Shown: positions 50,001 to 63,756 of the stretch, piece by piece
Numbering within the stretch: the first letter of the stretch is position 1
Layout: every line of letters starts with the position of its first letter
Source of the DNA: Lingula anatina
Lineage: Eukaryota > Animalia > Brachiopoda
Length of the DNA stretch: 64,000 bases
Assembly: GCA_051362555.1 (NCBI GenBank)
Contig: CM120642.1
Span: 24,862,001-24,926,000 of the forward strand
Direction: 5' to 3'
Position numbers and translations under genes: made by a program
Notes under the pieces: generated by a model
What the model saw: only the letters and a program-made list of their open reading frames with translations
Database searches by the model: none
Told to the model about the DNA's origin: nothing

Positions 50001-50421
50001 GCAGTTGTCTCCTAAAAGGTTTTTGAAAACAAAGGTCTTTATAAAGTGGTATAGTATGTTCCTTTTCCTTAAGTTAGTATCTACCACAGGCAGTATCGAT
50101 AACCTGCTTAGATGGCATGTATTGTAGGCCTTCAAGCAGTGTTAACAGCTGACCACCATAAAATCTGCTCTAACCCCCCCCCCCCCCCCCGCCCCGTACG
50201 AGTTTTATGTTAAGTCGACGTCGTCATAATTAGTGGTTTAACTTGTTCCAAACTACTTAAATTACTTTGTTTCGACTTCTTAACGGTTTTTAAATACTTG
50301 AGCAAGTGATGATTATATCAACTGCTTAAATACCTTAAAGTGTAGTTATGGTTTTAATGTGACCATGAGTGTATCTAATTTTGTTACAGGATCTAATAAA
50401 ACTGACAAACCAACATTAAAG

Positions 50422-52953
50422 ATGGATCTGGCAGATGATATATTTAGTGACGTGTTTCCGGAAATGGAAGTCGATTGCGCGTCCGCTTTTCATCACAAGA
50501 AACGCGATGAAATGTGGTCCGCTTCAAAACTCTTTGAGGAGGCACTCCGATCTGGAATCAAATTGCCTTCAGACGAAGTTGTGATTTTATATGAACTTGC
50601 GACTCTAGACATCTTTTCGGCAGATTTCGAACTCGGTTTGAGCAGGTATGAAGATGCTCTCTTGAAGGCGAGAGAAGTTCAGAATCCCTATCTTGAATGC
50701 GCAGTGTTGTTTGGCTGTGGTCATTGCTACAATAGCCTCAAGCGCCACGCCGACGCGACACGCAGCTTTCAAGCACTTGGCGACATAGCTAATGTCCTTG
50801 GAAACGATTTATTTCAGGTGGTCTCACATTGCTGTTTGGCTAAAAACTATTTCGATGAAAAATTGAACTGGGTAGATAATGCTGCGAAGCAAATAGATTT
50901 TGCAGAAATTATACTAAAAAATACATCTCATGACTCCAAATCACGCCCTATCATGGCGTTATTATGTGCCCGTGGACGGCTGCACTTAGCAAAAGGCAGT
51001 ACCGATCTTGCGCTTCAAGCACAGCATCTGGAAACAGCCAGGAAATATTTAGATTTTGAAACTCATTTATCAACCCACTTGACCAACAATGATCGCGCGA
51101 AGCTATTCAGCTGTCAAGCGGTAATTTATTCTCTAATGTCATCGTATACCACTGCTCTTAAATTTGCGCAACAAGCCCTGGACGTGGCTGAGGGTTATTC
51201 TGCCGTTGGAGAGTCAAACGCCGTCTTAAGTTCTATTCACTTCAAGCTCAACAGCTCAGAAAATGGTTTCAGATGTGGTGATGCGGCTCTGGCTAGTTTC
51301 AGAAGAGCGGATAACAACATGAGAGATTTCGAGGTTAGCTTGCAGATAGTAAACTCCTACTTAAGTTTCAAGGGTTTCGATCCCACACAAATGTTCCAAC
51401 TAACAATGGACGAAGTTTCCAAATTGTCTGCAAGATATGTAATGCCAGCTACGACCTTCATCAAAACGTTGCAAATGAGACTTACAAGCGATGTTCACAA
51501 ACTTGCTTTTGCAGAGCTCAGCAACGAACTGAGTGAGCTCATTCAACTCATGTTCGTAAACATCGATGATCTTAACACCGCCTTGGGTTGTGCTGAGAGT
51601 ACGCGAACAATGTCTTTGATCAGTGGCATGGAGAGAAGGTTTAAGGATACTTCTTCGGATTTTGACATTCTTCAATTATTGGAGTCAAGCATCGCCTCTC
51701 CAGGAATGCTCAAAGTAGTCAGTTCTTGTTCTGACAATGCTGTATTTTTTTCTTTTATGAGAAACCGTTTCTTTGAAGGCTTTGTGGCCTGGATCTTTAA
51801 AGCCAATCAAGCAGTTGACTACCATAACTTTACAAAGTACATCTCGACAAAAGTCATCCCTTGCTCTAACCAAGTTTTGGAAGATACTATAACGATGCTA
51901 CAAAGAAATATTGCCACAATGAGTCGTGAAGCTGGGGTTGCAAGTAGGGATGCACGATTTGATGAGAGAAACGCTTTAAAAGAAGAGGACCTAGAAATTG
52001 GAGAGCGTTACCGAAGGGGTTCTGCAGACATCTTGCAAGAACTGTATAGGATTTTATTCTTACCTATAGAGAATGAATTGCCTGTCTTAAGATCGTATAG
52101 TAGCACCTCTGAAATTATCTATAAAAGACTTTTGATTATACCCAACGCACATCTTCTCCTTCTACCCTTCCCAGCTCTAATGAATGAAAAAGGACACCAT
52201 TTGTGTGACTTCGTAAACGTGACCGTCGCCCCTTCTCTGAAACTCCTTGCCCACTTGAATGACCTTGCCCAGTTGAACAGAGGTCCAAGCAGATTCCTGG
52301 TAATTGGTAACCCCCTAACTCCACCAGGGGCGAGGCTTTGCACGCTCCCTGGGGCCGAGAGGGAGGCGAGGAACGTCGCAGCGCTGTTTCCAGATACTGA
52401 GCTGCTAATTGGGAAGTCGGCGAGAAAGTACTATGTTATGGAAAAAATGGTGTCAGCAGAAGTCATCCATTTTGCATGCCATGGATCATGGTCAGAAAAC
52501 TTTTTGGCTCTCGCTTCAAATAACCCCAGTTATGATTCTCAGAACGTCACTCCAAGAAATGCTGACTACAGATTGACTGCTGACGAAGTTGCCCAATTGC
52601 CCCTCACAGCCAGATTAGTTGTCCTGAGTGCTTGCAATAGCGGTAGAGGAAAGGTAACAGGAGAGGGTATCATAGGCCTAGCGCGGTCATTTATTGCAGC
52701 AGGTGCACGTGCCGTGCTTGTTGCCCTTTGGCAGCTGCCAGACGACGCCACTGAGCTGATAATGACGACATTCTACTCCAAGTTTAAGGCTGGCGAGTCA
52801 GCGTCATCCGCTCTGAGATTGGCCATGGAAGACGGTCGTCAGAGGAAGAGAAATCCATTCTACTGGGCAGCATTTTATCTTATAGGGGTTGATGTGCATT
52901 ACAGTGGGGCAGTTTCAGAGAAAATTCAGATGTACATGTATGAGTCCGATTGA
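50422..52953 (+). CDS. TPR-CHAT (caspase-HetF/separase-clan) cysteine protease 1, TTC28-like architecture, 843 aa, single coding exon
   Basis: N-terminal helical TPR-like repeats; CHAT motifs LLIIP..LLLPFPAL, LVIGNP, LPGAEREA, HFACHG, LVVLSACNSG and WAAFYLIG. Start placed at ATG 50422 (after splice acceptor 50389) because MDLADDIFSDVF aligns with the paralog's MELMEDLLSHVF. Confidence 0.92.
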   Translation: MDLADDIFSDVFPEMEVDCASAFHHKKRDEMWSASKLFEEALRSGIKLPSDEVVILYELATLDIFSADFELGLSRYEDALLKAREVQNPYLECAVLFGCGHCYNSLKRHADATRSFQALGDIANVLGNDLFQVVSHCCLAKNYFDEKLNWVDNAAKQIDFAEIILKNTSHDSKSRPIMALLCARGRLHLAKGSTDLALQAQHLETARKYLDFETHLSTHLTNNDRAKLFSCQAVIYSLMSSYTTALKFAQQALDVAEGYSAVGESNAVLSSIHFKLNSSENGFRCGDAALASFRRADNNMRDFEVSLQIVNSYLSFKGFDPTQMFQLTMDEVSKLSARYVMPATTFIKTLQMRLTSDVHKLAFAELSNELSELIQLMFVNIDDLNTALGCAESTRTMSLISGMERRFKDTSSDFDILQLLESSIASPGMLKVVSSCSDNAVFFSFMRNRFFEGFVAWIFKANQAVDYHNFTKYISTKVIPCSNQVLEDTITMLQRNIATMSREAGVASRDARFDERNALKEEDLEIGERYRRGSADILQELYRILFLPIENELPVLRSYSSTSEIIYKRLLIIPNAHLLLLPFPALMNEKGHHLCDFVNVTVAPSLKLLAHLNDLAQLNRGPSRFLVIGNPLTPPGARLCTLPGAEREARNVAALFPDTELLIGKSARKYYVMEKMVSAEVIHFACHGSWSENFLALASNNPSYDSQNVTPRNADYRLTADEVAQLPLTARLVVLSACNSGRGKVTGEGIIGLARSFIAAGARAVLVALWQLPDDATELIMTTFYSKFKAGESASSALRLAMEDGRQRKRNPFYWAAFYLIGVDVHYSGAVSEKIQMYMYESD

Positions 52954-53195
52954 TACATGTAGTACCAAAATGGACACTGATACATTTCTTTGGGCGTAAA
53001 AAAACTAGACACATGGAATTGGGTTCTTTTAAAGTGAAGGGAATCTTGTGGTTTTCTTGAACTTCAAATGAATAAAATGAATACTGTATATATAAAAATG
53101 CAACTGGTAACTCATGTGCGAAGTCTGTATGCATGAGGTTGAGATCAATCGGTACATTTCGAAAGGTTAGTAGCTGTAAAGTGCCTTATGCAAAA

Positions 53196-53226
<31 letters not shown>

Positions 53227-53479
53227 ATATAGATAAATAAATAAATGAATAAATTTTAAGGAAGGTAATAGTCAAATTATCCTCTGCGGATATTTCAGTA
53301 TTGCGCGAATGATTGTTATCTCAGAATACTACAAGGGCATTTTTAAGTGATTTTTTCCATCTTTCTACTTTATAAATGCATTTACCCAGGAAAGCGGTGT
53401 CGGTCAGTGGTACCCGATTAAAGATGTAATAAATTCTACAAGCAGAGATGATTGTTATCCATGATATACGGTAATGCAA

Positions 53480-54220
53480 AATTGCCATATCAACAGTTCA
53501 TGAGGAGTAATTCCAATTCCAATGAAAAACTCTGCATGTCTTGTCTTGCATACTTCCTGCAATTCCCGTACTTACCGAAAAGCCTCTGCAGAAGGCACCA
53601 GCTATTCTTAATTGCTATATAGGTCTACATGACAGATATTCCAGATATGCAGAGTCACGTTTATATTCCTCTGTGAGGCTTTATTGACGATATATTATTT
53701 ATTTCTTGAAGGAAGAGTACAAGTAGTATCAAGAATAATTTGCACGCTATTTATGATATACAATGGAACGCTAAATGATTATTTAGAAACGTGTCGTACA
53801 AGGTAGTCAGCAAGAGACCTTCTAGGACGTTTCATACTAAAATAAGTTCATTGGCGAGAGGGCTCCTATTGCTTTCAACCATGAAAATAAGAAAATAAGA
53901 GCGCTTTAGGATTCAAACATCGCACCAGCTGGATTGCTCCAACTGTGGGAAGGATTCTTGCTTCAGTGTATTCAGCTTAATAATCTGATACGCCTCCTTG
54001 ATGGCTAGTGGATAATAAACTTTCTTGTGTGACGAAGAGTGACAGATTGCACTGAGGAAGAATCTTCCGCAGAGTTCGATCGATCCAGCTAGTACGATGG
54101 GCTTATCTGAACGTTCCCTAAGATAACGATTTATATTGTAGTCCCACGGCTACACACAGCCTTCGTTATCATATTGATAGAGCTTCTGCGAATTGCTTCT
54201 GCTTCTGCTGTATAATTTAT
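53480..54220 (+). pseudogene. Possible highly decayed reverse-transcriptase (Penelope-like) remnant
   Basis: A stop-riddled frame contains 'GFIDDILFI' (~53678-53704, YxDD-like) and later 'ELLRIASAS'. Weak. Confidence 0.25.
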
Positions 54221-56036
54221 CTGTGACTGAAATACAGACGTATTTCGCTAATCGTTTGTACGGAAATATTGTGCGATTACTTGTTAAGGCACCCTTAGCC
54301 CCTTCCCAGTTGGTGAGTGATACGTACGTATTTGATTTGAAGAAGATGTATTTAATTAGACATAAAGGATGTAAGGTGTCGTCAGACATAAACGCAAGAT
54401 ATTCCATAACAAATAAACGTTAAAAATTAGATTCCCGATAAACAGAGTCCCCTATGCTCTCTTTAGCTATATCTAAAGCTACGTACGCTTTGAAGATGGG
54501 GTTGATATAGAACTTATCACAGCATTTTATTAATTTTTTTATCATTTTTAGGTCACAAGAAATCCGTTTCTTGCTTGCACTTTGAAAAAGCAACAGAAAC
54601 TGGATCACTGAACAAAAGTGTTTGCTTTTACGTCATCAATGTACTCTGCTTCCTTCCTGTATGTCTGCGATTAGCATAATGGGGTCAATGATATTGGATG
54701 TGAGGTTGGCACGCATATACTAGAGTATACTGGTATATAGGCCTATTACCTAGGTAGTATTCATTTGTTAGCTACCGGTACCTTGCGTTAGAACATATAT
54801 GTTTGTTCGGGCACTTAGAAGTGGCCTTAGGTAACTGGCATTGTATATGTAAGTATTAAAAGATGAATTTTTTTTGTTTTCCATCCCAATACCGTACAGA
54901 CTGCTCCGATTCCTTAACATCCGGTTACTAATTTTAACTGCAAGCAGACTCAGAGCACAGTGCTTAGCCTTGCTTTGAGTCGTGCTTACGCCGTTTATCT
55001 GTCGTCACAGGAATGATATTTTGGTTCCTCCAGGAGGCGAGATGGAGTCCGTGCAGTGAAGTACCGTTGCGGTCAAGCTCTCTTGTGGCAGTTTCTATTT
55101 TTGTGTTAAAGATCGCGACCCTAGGTGTGCGGATACTAAGCACTAGGCCTATATTGAAATGGTCTTGTTATGCTATACTGTATATATATGTTTTATTACT
55201 ACAAAATAAAAAAGCTACGCACAGAAACAGCGTGTATATCCGCAGTAGCTATCCATGTTTTGTCTGATTTTATTGTTGATAAATGGTCTCTCATATCCGA
55301 AAGACGCCATAAAACGCCATGTCTGGGGGATTTTTCTGAATTTTTCCACCTCCTGTGTTTGAAGAGTTTCTCGAGCGCGTGAGCCTAGTGAACTTTCGTA
55401 TGTCAACTAAGATTTGGGAACAAGGAAGCTAGAATTTTTGATGCTTTGAAAAACACTCGTAGTCGGCTACAGCGTAATTGGCTTCTGTAGGTCGACTATG
55501 ACTTAGTGTAGTCAACTAAGAATATTACATTCAATGTTGAACAGGGGCTAGTTCCGAGACTGACAGTAGGCTACAAAAATGCGAATGCTTGGCTTAAAAC
55601 ATCCAGTTACATCAACGGTGTTTGTGACAATATTGATAGGTCATTGAATCTGTTTTATGTTTGGGAGCCTGAAATAAAAGTTTTTATAAGTAAGTTTGCA
55701 TTTACACCCTGAATGCCTGTTACATGTTTCAGCAACAGCATTGAAAAGAATTTAACATTCAGAGTTAGAAGTAAAAGCAACACTTTCTAGTATATCACTT
55801 TACTAAAGATGAAGCCAGCTTAGCTTAAATGACACAGTGTTTGCGTTGTCAAAGTGTAATTGTTAAAACTTCAAAATTATTCATTGATTTAACTATTTAA
55901 CCCATTGTCCTAATTTTTTAAAAGCCTCATAAAAAGTCGTGTTTATCGTTATCCACATTTTGCAACTAATTATAATTAATTTTTTAGGTGGAAACACTGC
56001 ACAAGGGATATACTTCCTCAAAACCCATAGATAAAC

Positions 56037-58541
56037 ATGGAACTGATGGAGGACCTGTTAAGCCATGTTTTCCAAGACATCGATGCAAATCATCTACATG
56101 AGCCAACAGTGCAGTTTTATGAGGAAGGATGTACGTCTACGATCTCAAAGAAATATGAGAGGCTTCTTCGTTCTTATTCCAATTCACCTATGTTAGAGAG
56201 TGTGTTGTTATGTAAACTCGCCCGGATTGATTTTATGGCGACGGAATACGAACTTAGCTTAGACAGGTTTGAATCAGCGCTTGACAAGGCAAGAGACCTA
56301 AAACATTCGCAATTGGAATGCTCCATTTTGTACGGTTTTGGCAACTGTTATCTTCAGCTAAAACGCTACAAAGACGCAATACAAAAGTTTCAAATAATGG
56401 GTGAGATAGCAAGTAGAAATGATGACCAGTTTTACCAGGCAGTTTCTCACTGTTCTTTGGCTAAAAGCTACGCGAGTCAAAACGAAACTGAGCTTGAAAA
56501 AGCTTCACACCAAATTGAACATTGCGTCAAAATACTCAAAGGTACCCCAAAGAACTCGGAACATTTTTCAACTATTTCTCTTCTTTGTGCACAAGTACGA
56601 CTCCACGTTGCCAAATCTGCCATAAATCGCACCGCAGCTGAACGCCAACTTCATCTTGCAAAACAGGATTTGCTTCAATCGCAGATGGACAGTATCACTG
56701 TAGAAAAGCAGGCTGCTATATGGCTGTGTCTTGCACAGATTCATTTAGCCCTGTGTGACCATGTGACCGCTCTACAAAATGGCATCCAAGCGGCGGACAA
56801 TGCGGTTTCAAACACAATGAAGGGAGACTGTTTTGCATTGTTGAGTATCATTTACTTCAGATTAGGATGTCGGGATTTGGGGTTTCGTTGTGCCGACCTG
56901 GCAGTGGAGATCTTCAAAATGCTTAACTATCAAATGAAAGTGTTTGACATCAATCTTAATATCTCCTACGCGTTTTTGGAATTCAAAGAATTTGACGTAA
57001 CACATCGATACCAACTAGAAGCAGAAGATGTGTCGAAAATTACTGGATACTTGCAAGGCGCCACTGTTTTTACAAAGTCTCTCCAGATTAGACTTTCCAG
57101 TGATAAACACAAGCTTGCCTTCTCTGAACAGAGCAGAGAGGCCAGTGAGATTCTTCAGATGATTCACATCAACAGGGATGAAGCCGACGAAGCCCTTTTT
57201 TGCGCTGAGAGCACCAGATCGAACTCCTTGATAAGTTGGATTGAAACCAGGTTTGAAGACGACCCTGATAAGCGGCAAATTTTGAAGTTCTTTGCAGTAA
57301 GCGTTTCGACGCTTGGCATGATGAAAGTGATTGAAGAGGTCTGCGACACAGGGATTATGTATTCCTATATCTCCAACAGGCTTTTTAATGGATTTATTGT
57401 ATGGATCTTTCATACTGGAGATAATGAAAAAAGGAACAACATACTAACCAAAGTCATCCCTTGCTCTTACCACAAACTTCAATCTACTATCAAGATGCTG
57501 CAAATGACCATTGCATCCAAGAGTCGTGAAATTGGAATTGTGGGCCGGGACGCATTCGTAAGAGATCGAAACGCCTTAAAAGAAGATGACATTGAGGGAG
57601 GAAGTGAACACAGTTTGCAAGGGTCGTGCGCCATTTTGCGAGAACTCTACACAATATTATTAGAACCCATTGAAAAGGAAGCTCGTATTATTCGAGAGGA
57701 ACACAAGAGCAACGGAGCTATGTGGCGCCTTTTGATTATCCCGAACTCGGAATTATTTCTTGTCCCTTTCCCTGCTCTTGTGAACTCTTGGGGTCAATAT
57801 CTATGCAGAATTTGGAAAGTTTCTGTTGTCTCTTCTCTTAAACTTCTGTCGCATCTTCGCGGTCTAGCATTAAAGGAGGACAGTCAGAAAACCTTTCTAG
57901 TGATAGGTAATCCTCTTACCCCTACAGGAGCAGGTCTTTGTTTCCTCCCTGGAGCAGAGAGGGAGGCGAAAAATGTCGCAGCGTTGTTTCCACACGCCAA
58001 ATTGCTTGTTGGAAAGATGGCAAGAAAGAACATTGTCATGGAACAGATGAAAGATGCGCAAGCCATACACTTTGCGTGTCATGGATGTTGGACAGAAAGT
58101 TATTTGGCGTTGGCATCGAATTCAGACGATCTTGAAGAATGTGCGCAACCCAAACACTACAGACTGACCGCCGATGAAATAGCACATCTTACGCTAAAAG
58201 CCGGGCTAGTTGTACTGAGTGCATGCAATAGTGGCAGAGGAAGGGTAACGGGGGAAGGCATCGACGGTCTTGCGCGTGCGTTCTTCCTTGCTGGCGCACG
58301 CGCAGTACTTGTAGCTCTATGGCAGCTACCAGATGCCGCCACTGTGTCAATAATGACATCATTTTACTCTAACTTTAAATCAGGACAATCTGCGTCATCG
58401 GCGCTTCGCCAGGCCATGGAAGACTGCCAACAAGATTTCAAAGACCCATTTTACTGGGCAGCTTTTTACCTTATGGGTGACGACGTGTACTATAGTAATG
58501 CAGTCCCCGAATGGCTTTTATTAGGCCACTTCCCGTATTGA
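56037..58541 (+). CDS. TPR-CHAT cysteine protease 2, 834 aa, single coding exon; tandem paralog
   Basis: Same motif series (HFACHG, LVVLSACNSGRG, WAAFYLMG). Splice acceptor at 55987 and an in-frame TAG just before the ATG fix the start. Confidence 0.93.
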   Translation: MELMEDLLSHVFQDIDANHLHEPTVQFYEEGCTSTISKKYERLLRSYSNSPMLESVLLCKLARIDFMATEYELSLDRFESALDKARDLKHSQLECSILYGFGNCYLQLKRYKDAIQKFQIMGEIASRNDDQFYQAVSHCSLAKSYASQNETELEKASHQIEHCVKILKGTPKNSEHFSTISLLCAQVRLHVAKSAINRTAAERQLHLAKQDLLQSQMDSITVEKQAAIWLCLAQIHLALCDHVTALQNGIQAADNAVSNTMKGDCFALLSIIYFRLGCRDLGFRCADLAVEIFKMLNYQMKVFDINLNISYAFLEFKEFDVTHRYQLEAEDVSKITGYLQGATVFTKSLQIRLSSDKHKLAFSEQSREASEILQMIHINRDEADEALFCAESTRSNSLISWIETRFEDDPDKRQILKFFAVSVSTLGMMKVIEEVCDTGIMYSYISNRLFNGFIVWIFHTGDNEKRNNILTKVIPCSYHKLQSTIKMLQMTIASKSREIGIVGRDAFVRDRNALKEDDIEGGSEHSLQGSCAILRELYTILLEPIEKEARIIREEHKSNGAMWRLLIIPNSELFLVPFPALVNSWGQYLCRIWKVSVVSSLKLLSHLRGLALKEDSQKTFLVIGNPLTPTGAGLCFLPGAEREAKNVAALFPHAKLLVGKMARKNIVMEQMKDAQAIHFACHGCWTESYLALASNSDDLEECAQPKHYRLTADEIAHLTLKAGLVVLSACNSGRGRVTGEGIDGLARAFFLAGARAVLVALWQLPDAATVSIMTSFYSNFKSGQSASSALRQAMEDCQQDFKDPFYWAAFYLMGDDVYYSNAVPEWLLLGHFPY

Positions 58542-61145
58542 TGACGACTTATTACAAAGACGTTGAAGGCACAAGTACATGTACATGTACATTCTGATGG
58601 TTTTGTGCACATAAACATTTTTGTACCGTAATTCTTTGATAGTGCAGAAGCGCTTAGCAAACTCTGTGCAGCAACTTTAATGTAGAGAATTCTTCGTTAA
58701 GTATTTATTTACTTCCGTGTGCTGTCAGGCTCTTGATTTTCTGTGTGTGTGGCGTCACGTTCAGTGATGAGTTCCCTTTTGTAATGTTTGCGTTTGGAGA
58801 ACCCTTTGCCAACAATTATGTTTGCTCCTACAGGCAACGCAAAAATGATATTTATTATTGAAAATAGCACACTTCAAGGTCACGTTGAAAGTCATTGTAA
58901 CTTTGCTGGCCACGAATAAACTGAGACTGATATAGCGGTCCCTATGCACGGTGAAAAATATTGCTACATATGTATATGCACTTTAACATTGTGTGTGTTC
59001 TACTTTTTCTAACCTTTTTGTCATTTCTATATGCCTTCAAGTATTTTATTAATTTTTCGTTAATTTTTTCCATTTAATATATTGTTTGATTTACTGTGGC
59101 AGCTTGACCCCCCTCCCCCCCCCCCCCCACCCCCGGACCGGCCTGGTGCCCTAATAACGTACGTGTTTAGTCTGCTTATTTACAAGATTCCCACTCTATA
59201 CTATGATGTTGTAAAACAGGCACAGAGACACAGCGCCAGGCTAAAACAACTGCCTTCCAGCAAACTGGTTAAGGTTTTTGTTACCCTTTGTTATCCAAAT
59301 ACAGGAAATTAGTATTTTCATGCATCTCATTATTTAATAATACCTCTATCTTTGTGCTGATTTAAAACAATAAAAAACCTTGAAAATATAAAATATAGGC
59401 GTTAATATTTTTTTCGTTGCAATGTATAAGTATAGGCAACTCAAAGCTTCAATCATCACTTCAACACCTTTCTATTTTGAGGTGAGGTAGCAATCACATA
59501 GGGGCGTATCTTCATCCCTAAGAAAGATTTTGTCATGAAAATTGACAGATTGGACCATGAACGTGTGAGCTACAGGTGCCGTCGTTTTTGTTATGGAGGA
59601 ATCAGTCACTAATTACAGATTTTCATTAAACGAAGGGATTATTTGGCTTTATCAACGATATGAACTAAGCCTTTTAAGAAAAATCGCTGGCAGGGTTTTG
59701 GAGTAATAAATGGTGTCATTAAATTTGCGTTTGAACGGTGATCGTGGGTGCTCAGGAAAAAAGAGAAATTTGAAAAAAAAAAACGGGTTTTCAGTTTTTT
59801 TTTTATTCTCAAAATCGCAATTATGACGTCACCCGTAAGATAACATAAAATATTAATATATAGTCACTGAACACTGAAGATTTATTTATTACCCAAAAGA
59901 ATGTATGTAAGGCAGTAAATAAAATATTATTATCCTGTCAGGCCCTGCGCTGTCATGTTAAATTAGAGATAAGTTTAAACGGAATTTGATAGCCTTTAGA
60001 GATTTCACAGAAAATGAATAAATATGATGAATAAAAGTATCACTCTACTTCATATAGACCCTACATTGGTTGTGCCGTAATAATCAGGAGACCATTGCAA
60101 ACACGAAAGCATCCACTTCAAGAGGACGCACAAACCAAAACAAAATTCCCTAAGTCTATTTCTGTGTAAATGACCTATTTTAGTGTGCAATGCAAACTTT
60201 GTACACTGTTATCGTTACTTTTCGGAAGTAGGTCAGTATTATGCGCTGCAGTCTCACAGAAGCCATGATTAGGTGTAGTAGGGGATCGTAGACGTTACAC
60301 ACTGAACGTGAACTCAAACCTTAACACGTCAACTTTAATTAAACGGTAGGTACACGAACAAAGTATCGAGACTCGTGGTGACAATAGACATGTAGTACTC
60401 CTGGTGAGTGGGTGAGAACGAAAACTAGTAGTAGTAGGATTGTTAAAGGGGTCAAACGCTACATTTTATAGTAGGCCTACAAATGTCTGACCGAAAGGTT
60501 CGAAAGGTGGACTCAACCCATCTCTCAACTTTATGTTATGTCAGTTATGTAGGCCTATGTTGGTCGATCCAAGTAAAATTATCGGTCAGTTGTAGGCCTA
60601 CCCAAATTATTAACATAGTAAAAAGGTTTGACGGTATTTAAATATAAGTGTGAACCCCTGTACGAAAGGCCCAGAATAAATGTCATGTAGGCCTATATGT
60701 CAAAATACTCTGTCTTATCAACACAGGAAGAAAAAGATTGCGCATGCGGTACACAGTCAAGTTATGCAGACGATAGCTGGTGGTTGGGAGGCTATAAATT
60801 TCCGGGACCACTATTTCACTGCCCAACTCCTTGCTGAATGCAACCAACTGGACTGAATGGCACGCCTCCTCCTGGAGTTAAGTAGAATACAGAAAATCAG
60901 GTGATTATATGAGTCCGTTGCCATTCAGTTTAGCTGATCGGACTCGGCGAGAGTCCCCTCAAAGTTGGGTCGGTCTACGTAGACCGATGGTTATGGGAAC
61001 GGTGCCTTAGAATCATCTAGTCAAATAGAAGGATCTCAGAGGTGCGGTGTGCCCATTTTATGTCCCGTAAAATACTGTAAAATTAAGTCCTGTAAAATGT
61101 TTAACACATCATTAACATATGTACCTATGTTTCTATCTATTGCAG

Positions 61146-63554
61146 CTGCATGACATCAATATCGCTTTGAATAGGGCTTTTGCAAGAATGTCCAACAGAC
61201 TTGTCAATTCCGAAAAATTGAAGGTACTCGAGTTGCTTTGGAGTGATCCACAGAGCGAAGCTTTACTGTTGGAGGTCGCAAAATGGGACATGCTTCGTAT
61301 TGGAGACAAATTGGGGTTTCCGGAGTATCTAACACGATGTGCCAATCTTAAGACATTATGTGTTTGGGTTCATGATTTTGGCATCAGCATCCCTGAGACG
61401 GTTTTTGATTTGAATACTTTACAAGCACTCTTGATTTCTGCAGTGGACTTAACAGAGATCCCTCGTGAAATACGCCAACTTGCCGATCTGAAAACGCTAT
61501 ATATACAGAACGGTAAAATTACCAACATTTCAGATTTTATTGGTGATTTGGTTAATTTGAAAAGACTGTCATTCATGAAGAACAGAATAAACCTCGTTTC
61601 AATTGAATTGGGGAAGTTGAAACAATTAACATATCTCAGTTTTTCTGACAATAGTTTGGCTGATTTTCCCCTTTGTATATGTGAACTGTACAAGCTAAAG
61701 CACTTGGTGTTGACTGAAAATAAACTAAATATAATTCCGTCGGAAATAAGAAAATTGACAAACCTGGAAGGTCTCTTCGCCTCACATAATGAAATAACCG
61801 TTATTTCCCCTGACATTGGTAGCTTAACGAAACTCAAGTTTCTTGACCTTCGGTATAACCAGGTAGAAGTTGTACCGTTCGAAATTGGCTACCTTGATGC
61901 CCTTAAGCAATTCTGGATCACAAAAAATCCGACGAAGCAACCACCTCAAAATGTATGTTCCCAAGGCACGCAAGCTATCATGCGTTATTTAGAAGATCTC
62001 CGCCGCTCGGCAGCGATAGAGACCGCTAGACTTAAGATAAACGTTTTGGGCGAAACCTGCGCGGGAAAAAGTAGTTTTGTGCGATCTTTAGCAGCAGGAG
62101 AATCGCGCATGACGCCCATGGCGGATCGAACCCATGTGATCGATCAAGCGGCATGGCAACCAGAGAAAGGGATTCTGATAAGAATCAATGATTTTGGTGG
62201 TCATGACATCTACAAGTTAGCTCACAGTATATTCATGGACAAAAACTCACCCGTTTTCCTCGTCTTTGACATCAATGAAATAAATGAATCGAATAGCAAT
62301 ATCCTCCTTGGAACGTGGATTAACGTAGTCCTTTCTAAATCACCAAAAACGAAGATAATACTGATAGGTACGCAAGCCGACAGGTGCAACGACACCGCAA
62401 TCCAGGTTAAATCTAAAGAAGTATCAGCTTATGTAGAAGATTTGCTTGTGAGGAGAGAGCTAAGCTTGAAATCGCAACTTGAAGCAGTGCGACAACGAAT
62501 GGAAGAGGATCTGCCCTTTCAAGAGGCCTTTAAGGCGAAAAACGCTGTGATCAGTTCTAGTCTCAGCGAAACACCCGACATAGTTAGGTCCATCAAGGTC
62601 GTCAGTTCCAACTCGCTGAGTGGTTTCCAAGCGATACAAAAGTTGGCGGTTTCCATGGCAAGAGAAAAAGCAGTCATTTTACCGGAATCATGGTTCATCG
62701 TTACTGATTACGTGGAGAGGGAGAAGGTTCGTAAGACCGAGCCTTACCTGAAGAAGAGCAAACTCATAATCTACCTAGACTCTCTGGAAACCGAGAGCAT
62801 CGAAAAAAGAGAGGCAGTGAAAGAAGTCCTTCCTGAGATTCTCCGGTACCTTCACGGTTCTGGTGAAATAATTTGGTTTGAACAGAGCCCTGTGCTTAGT
62901 GAGGTAATATTCCACAGACATGAGATCGTCGCCGGTTTACTGAAAGCCGTTTTGAGACACGACATGGAGGACTTGTTGGTCCATAGCCGCCCAGAATTCG
63001 TCCACCAGTTTTCCCAAAACCAAGTTTGGTTTTGCCCTCGCCCGGGAGGATATTCTGCACAGGGGTATCATGACTTACAAGATGCTGCAATGCCTCTGGA
63101 GGCCTTTTAATATTGGAGACATCGGGGCCAATGCAGTGATCGAGCTGATGAAGAACTTCGAGATGTGCTACTCAGTGGTGGTCAACAAGGTGGAATACCT
63201 GCATATACCATGGCTGCTAAATGAAACAGCACCTTCTTCGATCTCTAACAGGTGGCACCACCGTATAGAAGATCCAGACAACCAGGACCAACTAACTCTA
63301 GAACTGCACTTCGTCAACCAACCCCCGATAGGGTTCTACGAACAAGAGGCCGTCAGGCTGAACAAGTTCATAGAGCATAAAACTACCCGCGTTGACTGGA
63401 AAGACGGAGTATTTGTCGAGATGGACCAAAATACTCGATGTCTGCTGCAAAGAAAGGCCAACCATGACACCGGTGACGTGATTACTTTCGCGCTGCGAGG
63501 TTCTCACCTTCGAGATATTTGGAAGACTTTTTTGGAAGTCCATAGGGACATCAG
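61146..63554 (+). CDS. LRR-Roc-COR (ROCO, MFHAS1-like) protein; large exon with one frameshift near 63010; gene continues beyond the window
   Basis: Acceptor tgcag|61146, with first in-exon ATG at 61188. About 8-9 LxxLxLxxNxL repeats; 'PPQNVCSQG...IMRYL' cap; Roc G1 GETCAGKSS, G3 DFGG and G4 GTQAD; COR 'LRYLHGSGEIIWF'. Continues in the +1 frame (EDILHRGIMTYKMLQCLW...IPWLL...PIGFYEQ...WKDG) to donor AG|gtaaat at 63554. Confidence 0.88.
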
Positions 63555-63756
63555 GTAAATGAAATGCCTGAATGAAGCACACGACGACATAATTATTTAT
63601 CAAGCATGAGTTTGTAAAAACAGAGATCTGTTGGATAAACAGGATTTGTTGACGGTAATGTGACTAGATGTTCATTTAATTTTGGTAATGATTTTCATGT
63701 GACCGAGTACAGTATGCATTAAGGGACCATTTCCAGACTATAACTGTACTAACTGT

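What the first reader, a model, noticed from the sequence alone, without database searches (positions are those of the whole stretch)
50422..63554. Candidate innate-immune/cell-death module: two catalytically intact TPR-CHAT proteases next to an LRR-ROCO GTPase
Seen: three co-oriented genes within 13 kb, each with a ~2.4-2.5-kb coding exon, unlike the multi-exon neighbours, and each with an N-terminal repeat array fused to an enzymatic module (TPR+CHAT, TPR+CHAT, LRR+Roc-COR). Known: prokaryotic TPR-CHAT proteases act in defence (Csx29 of type III-E CRISPR; CHAT proteases that cleave bacterial gasdermins); LRR-ROCO and TPR proteins have been proposed as immune receptors in brown algae; MFHAS1 is linked to TLR signalling. 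Inference: an uncharacterised animal sensor-protease locus in which the ROCO is a partner, activator or substrate. Adjacency in an animal genome is weak evidence on its own, and I found no substrate or pore-forming gene in the window.
Basis: partly seen in the sequence, partly recalled or inferred. Interest (0 to 1): 0.8.

Follow-up and report, generated by a model that had tools for sequence, protein, structure and literature searches.

The report
Brachiopod TPR-CHAT pair beside broken ROCO
In a lamp shell (brachiopod), two neighbouring copies of a caspase-like gene family already known from corals keep their cutting residues and likely act as sensor-triggered proteases, while the GTPase gene beside them is broken by a 7-base insertion in this DNA and is likely just a neighbour, not a partner.

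Summary
The three genes are real. Two old tandem paralogs (47% identical) encode TPR-CHAT proteins with intact His/Cys; one matches a Lingula anatina record at 827 of 834 residues. With two more Lingula paralogs they group with anthozoan 'TTC28-like' TPR-CHATs, not with bacteria. In that clade one long coding exon and an intact dyad are common, so the shared gene layout is a family trait, not a sign of a module. The third gene is an MFHAS1-like LRR-Roc-COR with intact GTPase motifs, but the window allele carries a 7-base insertion that truncates COR. Two other DNA runs and 2 of 2 RNA reads lack the insertion, and allele differences show purifying selection (pN/pS about 0.22), so this is a segregating null. 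CHAT2 and ROCO are weakly transcribed; CHAT1 is almost silent. No Roc-COR lay near 156 other TPR-CHAT loci (short flanks, weak test). No substrate is in the window. Best reading: likely ligand-gated proteases next to an unrelated ROCO. A trans-acting ROCO-CHAT pathway is not excluded (about 8%). The scan noted intact animal TPR-CHATs before, in coral DNA.

The parts
50422..52953 (+). CHAT1: TPR-like solenoid + CHAT protease, 843 aa in one coding exon. In-frame upstream ATG at 50365; acceptor-like AG at 50388-50389.
   Evidence: almost no RNA reads in 3 of 3 RNA runs laid
52480..52635 (+). CHAT1 catalytic His687 (52480-52482) and Cys738 (52633-52635)
   Evidence: sequence, motif scan
56037..58541 (+). 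CHAT2: TPR-like solenoid (about 17-405), linker/beta region, CHAT (about 530-815); 834 aa; allele of Lingula anatina XP_013411689.1 (7 substitutions)
   Evidence: low sense-strand RNA depth
58080..58226 (+). CHAT2 catalytic His682 (58080-58082) and Cys730 (58224-58226)
   Evidence: invariant in 25 of 25 aligned sequences
61188..63558 (+). MFHAS1-like LRR-Roc-COR gene, large exon. Acceptor-like AG at 61144-61145; donor-like site after 63554, so the C-terminus may lie outside the window. LRRs about 61383-61865, Roc about 62034-62426, COR from about 62682.
63013..63019 (+). 7-base insertion of the window haplotype; shifts the frame inside COR-A and leads to a stop at 63108-63110
   Evidence: present in the X1 contig (0 gaps); absent in X3 and X7 contigs and in 2 of 2 X17 RNA reads

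Best explanation
The locus holds two old tandem copies of the animal 'TTC28-like' TPR-CHAT family with intact His/Cys, likely ligand-gated cytosolic proteases, next to an MFHAS1-like LRR-Roc-COR gene that is broken in this haplotype and likely acts independently of them. Shown: the gene structures, the motifs, the grouping with anthozoan TPR-CHATs, low transcription of CHAT2 and ROCO, the null allele and purifying selection on the ROCO alleles. Inferred by analogy with Csx29, DdvA and the fungal TPR-CHAT Q2L-6: the TPR solenoid holds the CHAT domain in a resting state, binding of a ligand to the TPRs (the faster-diverging part) realigns the dyad, and the enzyme cuts one specific protein encoded elsewhere (a gasdermin-E is one untested candidate). 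The intact ROCO allele would work as an LRR-fed, GTP-switched scaffold like MFHAS1. The adjacency would reflect the settling of fast-turnover, defence-type genes in the same repeat-flanked neighbourhood.
For: Tree: CHAT1 and CHAT2 group with Lingula paralog P0095 (SH-aLRT 99) and then with named anthozoan TPR-CHATs (SH-aLRT 92, 43 sequences; FastTree 0.985 on 142 sequences, with 0 of 25 sampled prokaryote-genome domains inside). Atlas: 9 of the 10 listed feature hits are cnidarian-dominated TPR-CHAT clusters. Long stop-free frames occur in 35 of 59 animal-clade metagenome loci, and His+Cys in 59 of 59 (Cys partly selected by the scan pattern) and in 136 of 150 top representatives. Fold: pTM 0.80; best PDB matches are separase, Csx29/Craspase and DdvA. 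Identity between paralogs is 39% in the TPRs and 64% in CHAT; 119 of 175 fourfold sites differ, so the duplication is old. ROCO: top Atlas hit is MFHAS1-like; G-motifs are intact; 19 synonymous vs 15 non-synonymous changes among 34 coding variants, pN/pS 0.22, P=1.6e-5. No Roc-COR hit in 156 of 156 other TPR-CHAT loci (profile control 8 of 8). Corals show unrelated families expanding together in dynamic regions (PMC12314368, passages).
Against: No activity, ligand or substrate was shown. DdvA has the dyad, yet no induced cleavage was seen (PMC11506125, passages). The immune role is by analogy only. The linkage test is weak: only 12 of 59 animal-clade loci had 4 kb or more of flank on a side, and no brachiopod or phoronid genome could be read. 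CHAT2 and ROCO reads appear together in 2 of 3 RNA runs. A naive estimate with recalled gene numbers (about 34,000 genes, tens of ROCOs, 3-4 CHAT loci) makes this adjacency only about 1-2% likely by chance; it becomes unremarkable only after allowing for the many immune-type family pairs that could have been noticed.
Confidence: 0.68

Rival explanations
1. Functional module in trans: the LRR-Roc-COR senses a cue and, on GTP-dependent dimerisation, binds the TPRs and activates the adjacent CHAT proteases (or is their substrate). This would be a split version of single-chain Roc-COR-caspase proteins.
For: Co-orientation, with a 2.65-kb gap. CHAT2 and ROCO are both detected in X14 and X17. Roc-COR is fused to caspase-type effectors in bacteria (PMC8195603 section 15) and in Owenia (PMC11463336, passages); unreviewed notes report such fusions elsewhere in this genome. 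Fungal TPR-CHAT genes sit next to their substrate genes (PMC8851545, passages).
Against: The ROCO null allele segregates while both CHATs stay open in the same haplotype. 0 of 156 other TPR-CHAT loci have a Roc-COR nearby. CHAT1 is nearly silent. Both gene layouts are family-typical or unexceptional.
Confidence: 0.08
2. The TPR-CHATs are not immune proteins but cell-cycle, developmental or proteostasis proteases/scaffolds in the manner of TTC28 or separase.
For: The human homologue TTC28 acts in cytokinesis (PMC12314368 and PMC9145168, passages). The top fold match is separase. The family is small here (4 copies seen), not a large polymorphic array. CHAT2 alleles differ at only 7 of 834 residues.
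Against: Lineage-specific duplication, faster TPR divergence, and the repeated expansion of the sister clade in corals alongside NACHT and GT4 genes fit a defence role better.
Confidence: 0.14
3. A decaying region: CHAT1 and the ROCO are on their way to becoming pseudogenes, and only CHAT2 works.
For: ROCO frameshift in this haplotype. CHAT1 has almost no reads and no database record was retrieved for it, although CHAT2's was.
Against: ROCO is open in two other DNA runs and under purifying selection. CHAT1 keeps an 843-aa frame and 64% identity in CHAT despite near-saturated silent sites.
Confidence: 0.07
4. A recently transferred bacterial defence cassette (TPR-CHAT + LRR-Roc-COR).
For: Large single coding exons; the best sequence scores after the Lingula record are mostly cyanobacterial.
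Against: Those hits are only about 30-40% identical, and the tree places the genes with animals. The ROCO is MFHAS1-like and shares a helical insert in Roc with P0213 that the other aligned Rocos lack. Splice-acceptor-like sites precede all three ATGs. There is no Roc-COR near 77 prokaryote-genome TPR-CHAT loci.
Confidence: 0.03

Closest known systems
Coral/anthozoan TPR-CHAT domain-containing proteins, annotated 'TTC28-like' (PMC12314368, PMC9145168)
   Same: N-terminal TPRs + one C-terminal CHAT, tandem duplication, one clade in the trees, long coding exon and intact dyad
   Different: A small family here (4 copies seen, against 276-304 in Acropora); short, degenerate TPR array; forms its own Lingula branch
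Lingula anatina XP_013411689.1 (LOC106174603, 'uncharacterized protein') and paralogs XP_023931919.1 / XP_013408801.1
   Same: The first is an allele of CHAT2 (827 of 834 residues); the paralogs keep His and Cys
   Different: No record was retrieved for CHAT1; no function is annotated
Csx29/Craspase TPR-CHAT, Myxococcus DdvA, separase
   Same: Overall TPR + CHAT fold and His-Cys dyad (Foldseek E about 1e-11 to 1e-13)
   Different: 10-13% identity, TM-score at most about 0.47; no CRISPR effector, anti-sigma or securin context; activation unknown
Fungal het-Q2-like TPR-CHAT (Q2L-6) / gasdermin two-gene clusters (PMC8851545)
   Same: Eukaryotic TPR-CHAT with a His-Cys protease domain
   Different: There the adjacent gene is the gasdermin substrate; here none is in the window
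MFHAS1 (MASL1) LRR-Roc-COR proteins
   Same: LRR-Roc-COR with no kinase in the part visible; top Atlas match; G1-G4 motifs intact
   Different: Only about 24% identical to the best hit (P0213); C-terminus not readable; window allele is a null

Membership tests
TPR-CHAT (PF12770 + TPR) protease family | CHAT domain above the Pfam cut-off | tested here: met
   207 and 229 bits vs cut-off 24
TPR-CHAT (PF12770 + TPR) protease family | His-Gly and Cys catalytic motifs | tested here: met
TPR-CHAT (PF12770 + TPR) protease family | N-terminal TPR solenoid | tested here: met
   TPR_12 above cut-off for CHAT2 only; helical-hairpin solenoid in the CHAT2 model; CHAT1 aligns over its full length
TPR-CHAT (PF12770 + TPR) protease family | Proteolytic activity on a substrate | not testable with these tools
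   needs an assay
Animal TTC28-like TPR-CHAT clade | Groups with animal rather than prokaryotic CHATs | tested here: met
   SH-aLRT 92; FastTree 0.985
TTC28 orthologs proper | Orthology to human TTC28 and its very long TPR array | not tested
   no TTC28 sequence was retrieved; at about 840 aa the proteins are far shorter than TTC28 (length recalled)
ROCO / MFHAS1-like | LRR followed by a Roc-COR tandem with intact GTPase motifs | tested here: met
   Pfam Roc 41.6 bits vs 27; COR-A in two pieces, each below cut-off; motifs; Atlas
ROCO / MFHAS1-like | Complete COR in one reading frame | tested here: not met
   window allele is frameshifted; X3, X7 and X17 alleles lack the insertion
Protease-substrate gene cluster (het-Q2-like/gasdermin, bacterial gasdermin type) | Adjacent gasdermin or pore-former gene | tested here: not met
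   no intergenic frame over 101 aa and none recognisable (read by eye, not scanned); the flanking genes are SH2-RasGEF, flotillin and a transposase; DNA beyond 64000 not seen
Proposed CHAT-ROCO module | Recurrent linkage of the two gene types | tested here: inconclusive
   0 of 156 loci, but short flanks and no related genome held

The most novel reading that the evidence does not exclude
A bilaterian animal uses a bacterial-style TPR-CHAT protease as the trans-acting effector of an LRR-Roc-COR sensor: a two-gene version of Roc-COR-caspase fusion proteins, with a natural ROCO-null allele available as a built-in control.
Probability: 0.08. Interest if true: 0.8.

Novelty: new member of a known kind. 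Interest (0 to 1): 0.3.

Why it matters
Animal TPR-CHAT proteins are known from genome surveys, but my searches (open-licence library only) returned no paper testing their protease activity or substrate. Lingula offers a small set of four intact copies outside cnidarians, easier to test than hundreds of coral copies. If a ROCO activated them, it would tie an LRRK2-type switch to a separase/Craspase-type protease in animals. On present evidence the locus is two known families side by side.

Tried and rejected
No whole genome is held, so paralog co-clustering in this genome could not be counted. Complex prediction of CHAT2 TPRs (35-415) with ROCO (1-608): no answer, score 0.00 in 2 runs, alignments not used, controls not folded; this is evidence neither for nor against binding. 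Run search: no RNA holder listed. X2 was set aside for the frameshift: it has no cover at 62952-63043 and its contig ends coincide with GATC sites. The first metagenome scan with CHAT2 alone found 0 relatives among 45 stretches. The CHAT1 homolog search returned 62 distant hits and missed the Lingula record. The ROCO homolog search gave mostly LRR-only hits. Assembly error as the cause of the frameshift: disfavoured, since an X1 contig carries it, though X1 may be the source. The upstream ATG at 61119 was rejected as the ROCO start because X3 and X7 lack 2 bases at 61126. A CHAT2-to-ROCO splice fusion was considered: no such joint among the 15 joints shown (437 not shown), and the Lingula record ends at the same stop. 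Findings look-ups near the window and by sequence were empty. No paper held Lingula + CHAT + caspase + TPR.
Full report
Observation. Stop-to-stop frames show two uninterrupted ORFs, CHAT1 (50422-52953, 843 aa) and CHAT2 (56037-58541, 834 aa), and a third gene split over two frames (61116-63110 and 62956-63558). Pfam gives CHAT in both ORFs (207 and 229 bits), weak TPRs, and LRR + Roc + COR-A for the third gene, with COR-A profile positions 1-75 in the first frame and 90-143 in the second. The CHATs are 47% identical over their length: 39% in the TPR part and 64% in CHAT. 119 of 175 fourfold sites differ, so the duplication is old. Both keep HFACHG and LSACNSG; His682, Gly683 and Cys730 are invariant in 25 of 25 aligned proteins. 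Neighbours are multi-exon housekeeping-type genes and repeats. Each of the three ATGs has an acceptor-like site just upstream.

Organism. The best hit among 1.84 billion representatives is P0063, a Lingula anatina record that differs from CHAT2 at 7 of 834 residues. The next hits fall to scores typical of the CHAT domain alone. No whole genome was held.

What the CHATs are. The AF2 model of CHAT2 (pLDDT 81.9, pTM 0.80) is a helical-hairpin solenoid followed by the CHAT alpha/beta domain. Its best PDB matches are separase, Csx29/Craspase and DdvA at 10-13% identity. The Atlas lists cnidarian-dominated TPR-CHAT clusters in 9 of 10 feature rows. Sequence searches rank cyanobacterial proteins high, but trees of the CHAT domain place CHAT1 and CHAT2 with another Lingula paralog (P0095) and then with named anthozoan proteins (Dendronephthya, Actinostola). 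Support is FastTree 0.985 on 142 sequences, using 25 of 113 prokaryote-genome domains, none of which fell inside, and SH-aLRT 99 and 92 on a 43-sequence subset with a fast search. In the first tree of 312 domains, support for the corresponding nodes was lower, 0.24 and 0.84. No TTC28 ortholog was in the trees. Of 84 metagenome CHAT domains, 59 fell in this clade. 35 of the 59 lie in stop-free frames of 600 aa or more, and all 59 have His and Cys, the Cys partly by construction of the scan. So a long coding exon and an intact dyad are ordinary for this clade. The family is described in print: 276 and 304 copies in two Acropora species, tandem duplication, 1-2 copies in most other metazoans, human homologue TTC28 in cytokinesis (PMC12314368, passages; PMC9145168, passages). 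The words 'catalytic', 'protease' and 'Lingula' do not occur in the main text of PMC12314368; its supplements and figures were not read and may list more species. Lingula has at least four copies (CHAT1, CHAT2, P0095, P0395).

What the ROCO is. The top Atlas match is MFHAS1-like. The P-loop, switch I Thr, DFGG and G4 motifs are intact. The frame break is a 7-base insertion at 63013-63019. An X1 contig over 59893-63774 matches the window with no difference (X1 may be the source sample). Contigs of X3 and X7 and 2 of 2 RNA reads of X17 lack the 7 bases; X2 does not cover the site. Without them the exon gives 787 codons to the stop at 63556-63558 and aligns to P0213 through COR at 24% identity. 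Of the 75 variant rows, 40 were shown and 34 of these are coding: 19 silent and 15 replacement, pN/pS 0.22, P=1.6e-5. The gene is therefore functional in the species and the window carries a null allele. A donor-like site after 63554 suggests a further exon outside the window, which I could not read. MFHAS1's link to TLR signalling I saw only in a search listing.

Expression. Three RNA runs were laid (6%, 6% and 25% of each read). CHAT2 has mean depth about 1.1 in X14, on the strand expected for sense RNA, 3.5-6.3 in X17, and 3' reads only in X11. The ROCO has 0.1-2.4 in X14, 1-1.9 in X17 and about 0 in X11. CHAT1 has at most 0.22 in any bin. This shows low transcription of two genes and says little about co-regulation.

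Is it a module? A Roc-COR profile (leave-one-out control 8 of 8) found nothing in 156 of 156 other TPR-CHAT loci: 77 prokaryote genomes and 79 metagenome contigs, 1.80 Mb. The test is weak for animals, since only 12 of 59 loci have 4 kb of flank on a side. Frames between the genes are at most 101 aa and none looked like a substrate by eye. In fungi the gene next to a TPR-CHAT is its gasdermin substrate (PMC8851545, passages). Brachiopods are reported to have GSDME (PMC11508797, passages), but none is seen here. In favour of some link, Roc-COR proteins carry caspase-type effectors in bacteria (PMC8195603, section 15 read) and in Owenia (PMC11463336, passages). Unreviewed notes of this scan report many Roc-COR genes elsewhere in this genome, several fused to caspases or CARDs. 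That makes a trans version thinkable, and it also makes a chance neighbour likelier. With recalled gene numbers, the naive chance of this adjacency is about 1-2%, but it was picked after the fact from many possible immune-family pairs, and unrelated families are known to expand together in dynamic regions (PMC12314368). ROCO pseudogenes are common in brown algae too (PMC11378527, passages).

Mechanism. The most likely reading (0.68) is that each CHAT is a ligand-gated protease: the TPR solenoid keeps the dyad in a resting geometry until a ligand binds, as described for Craspase and proposed for DdvA (PMC11506125, passages; no induced DdvA cleavage was seen there), and then cuts a specific target encoded elsewhere. 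The intact ROCO would act separately as an LRR-fed GTP switch. All functional steps are inferred. Rivals: cell-cycle or developmental role 0.14; trans-acting ROCO-CHAT module 0.08; decaying region 0.07; recent bacterial transfer 0.03.

Verdict. New members of known kinds. The scan had already noted intact animal TPR-CHATs in coral DNA. Interest 0.3; 0.8 if the trans-acting module proved true.

Noticed in passing
window:1525-9884 (+): Multi-exon SH2 + RasGEF gene (Pfam hits), BCAR3/SH2D3-like by recall; it has large exons of its own (about 0.9 and 1.2 kb).
   Followed up: partly
window:23029-30400 (+): Multi-exon flotillin-like gene (weak Band_7 and Flot hits).
   Followed up: partly
window:40594-41436 (-): Broken Tc1/mariner transposase: HTH_Tnp_Tc3_2 and DDE_3 in separate frames.
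   Followed up: partly
window:43409-44464 (-): Two exon-like frames resembling a phytanoyl-CoA dioxygenase family gene (recalled resemblance; no Pfam hit).
   Followed up: no
window:44668-49400: Very high-copy repeat block (contig depth thousands of times the single-copy level) with about 1.1-kb internal duplications and abundant strand-biased RNA reads, directly upstream of CHAT1.
   Followed up: no
window:34535-38741: Two near-identical frames on opposite strands (34535+ and 38481-) with mirrored GC skew, suggesting a long inverted repeat element.
   Followed up: no
P0065, P0080 (unnamed ENA proteins): Proteins with two CHAT domains that fall inside the animal-type CHAT clade; source organism unknown.
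   Followed up: no
P0095, P0395: Two further Lingula TPR-CHATs (945 aa, 94 differences) on other scaffolds, with intact His/Cys; their neighbours would be a direct test of ROCO linkage.
   Followed up: partly
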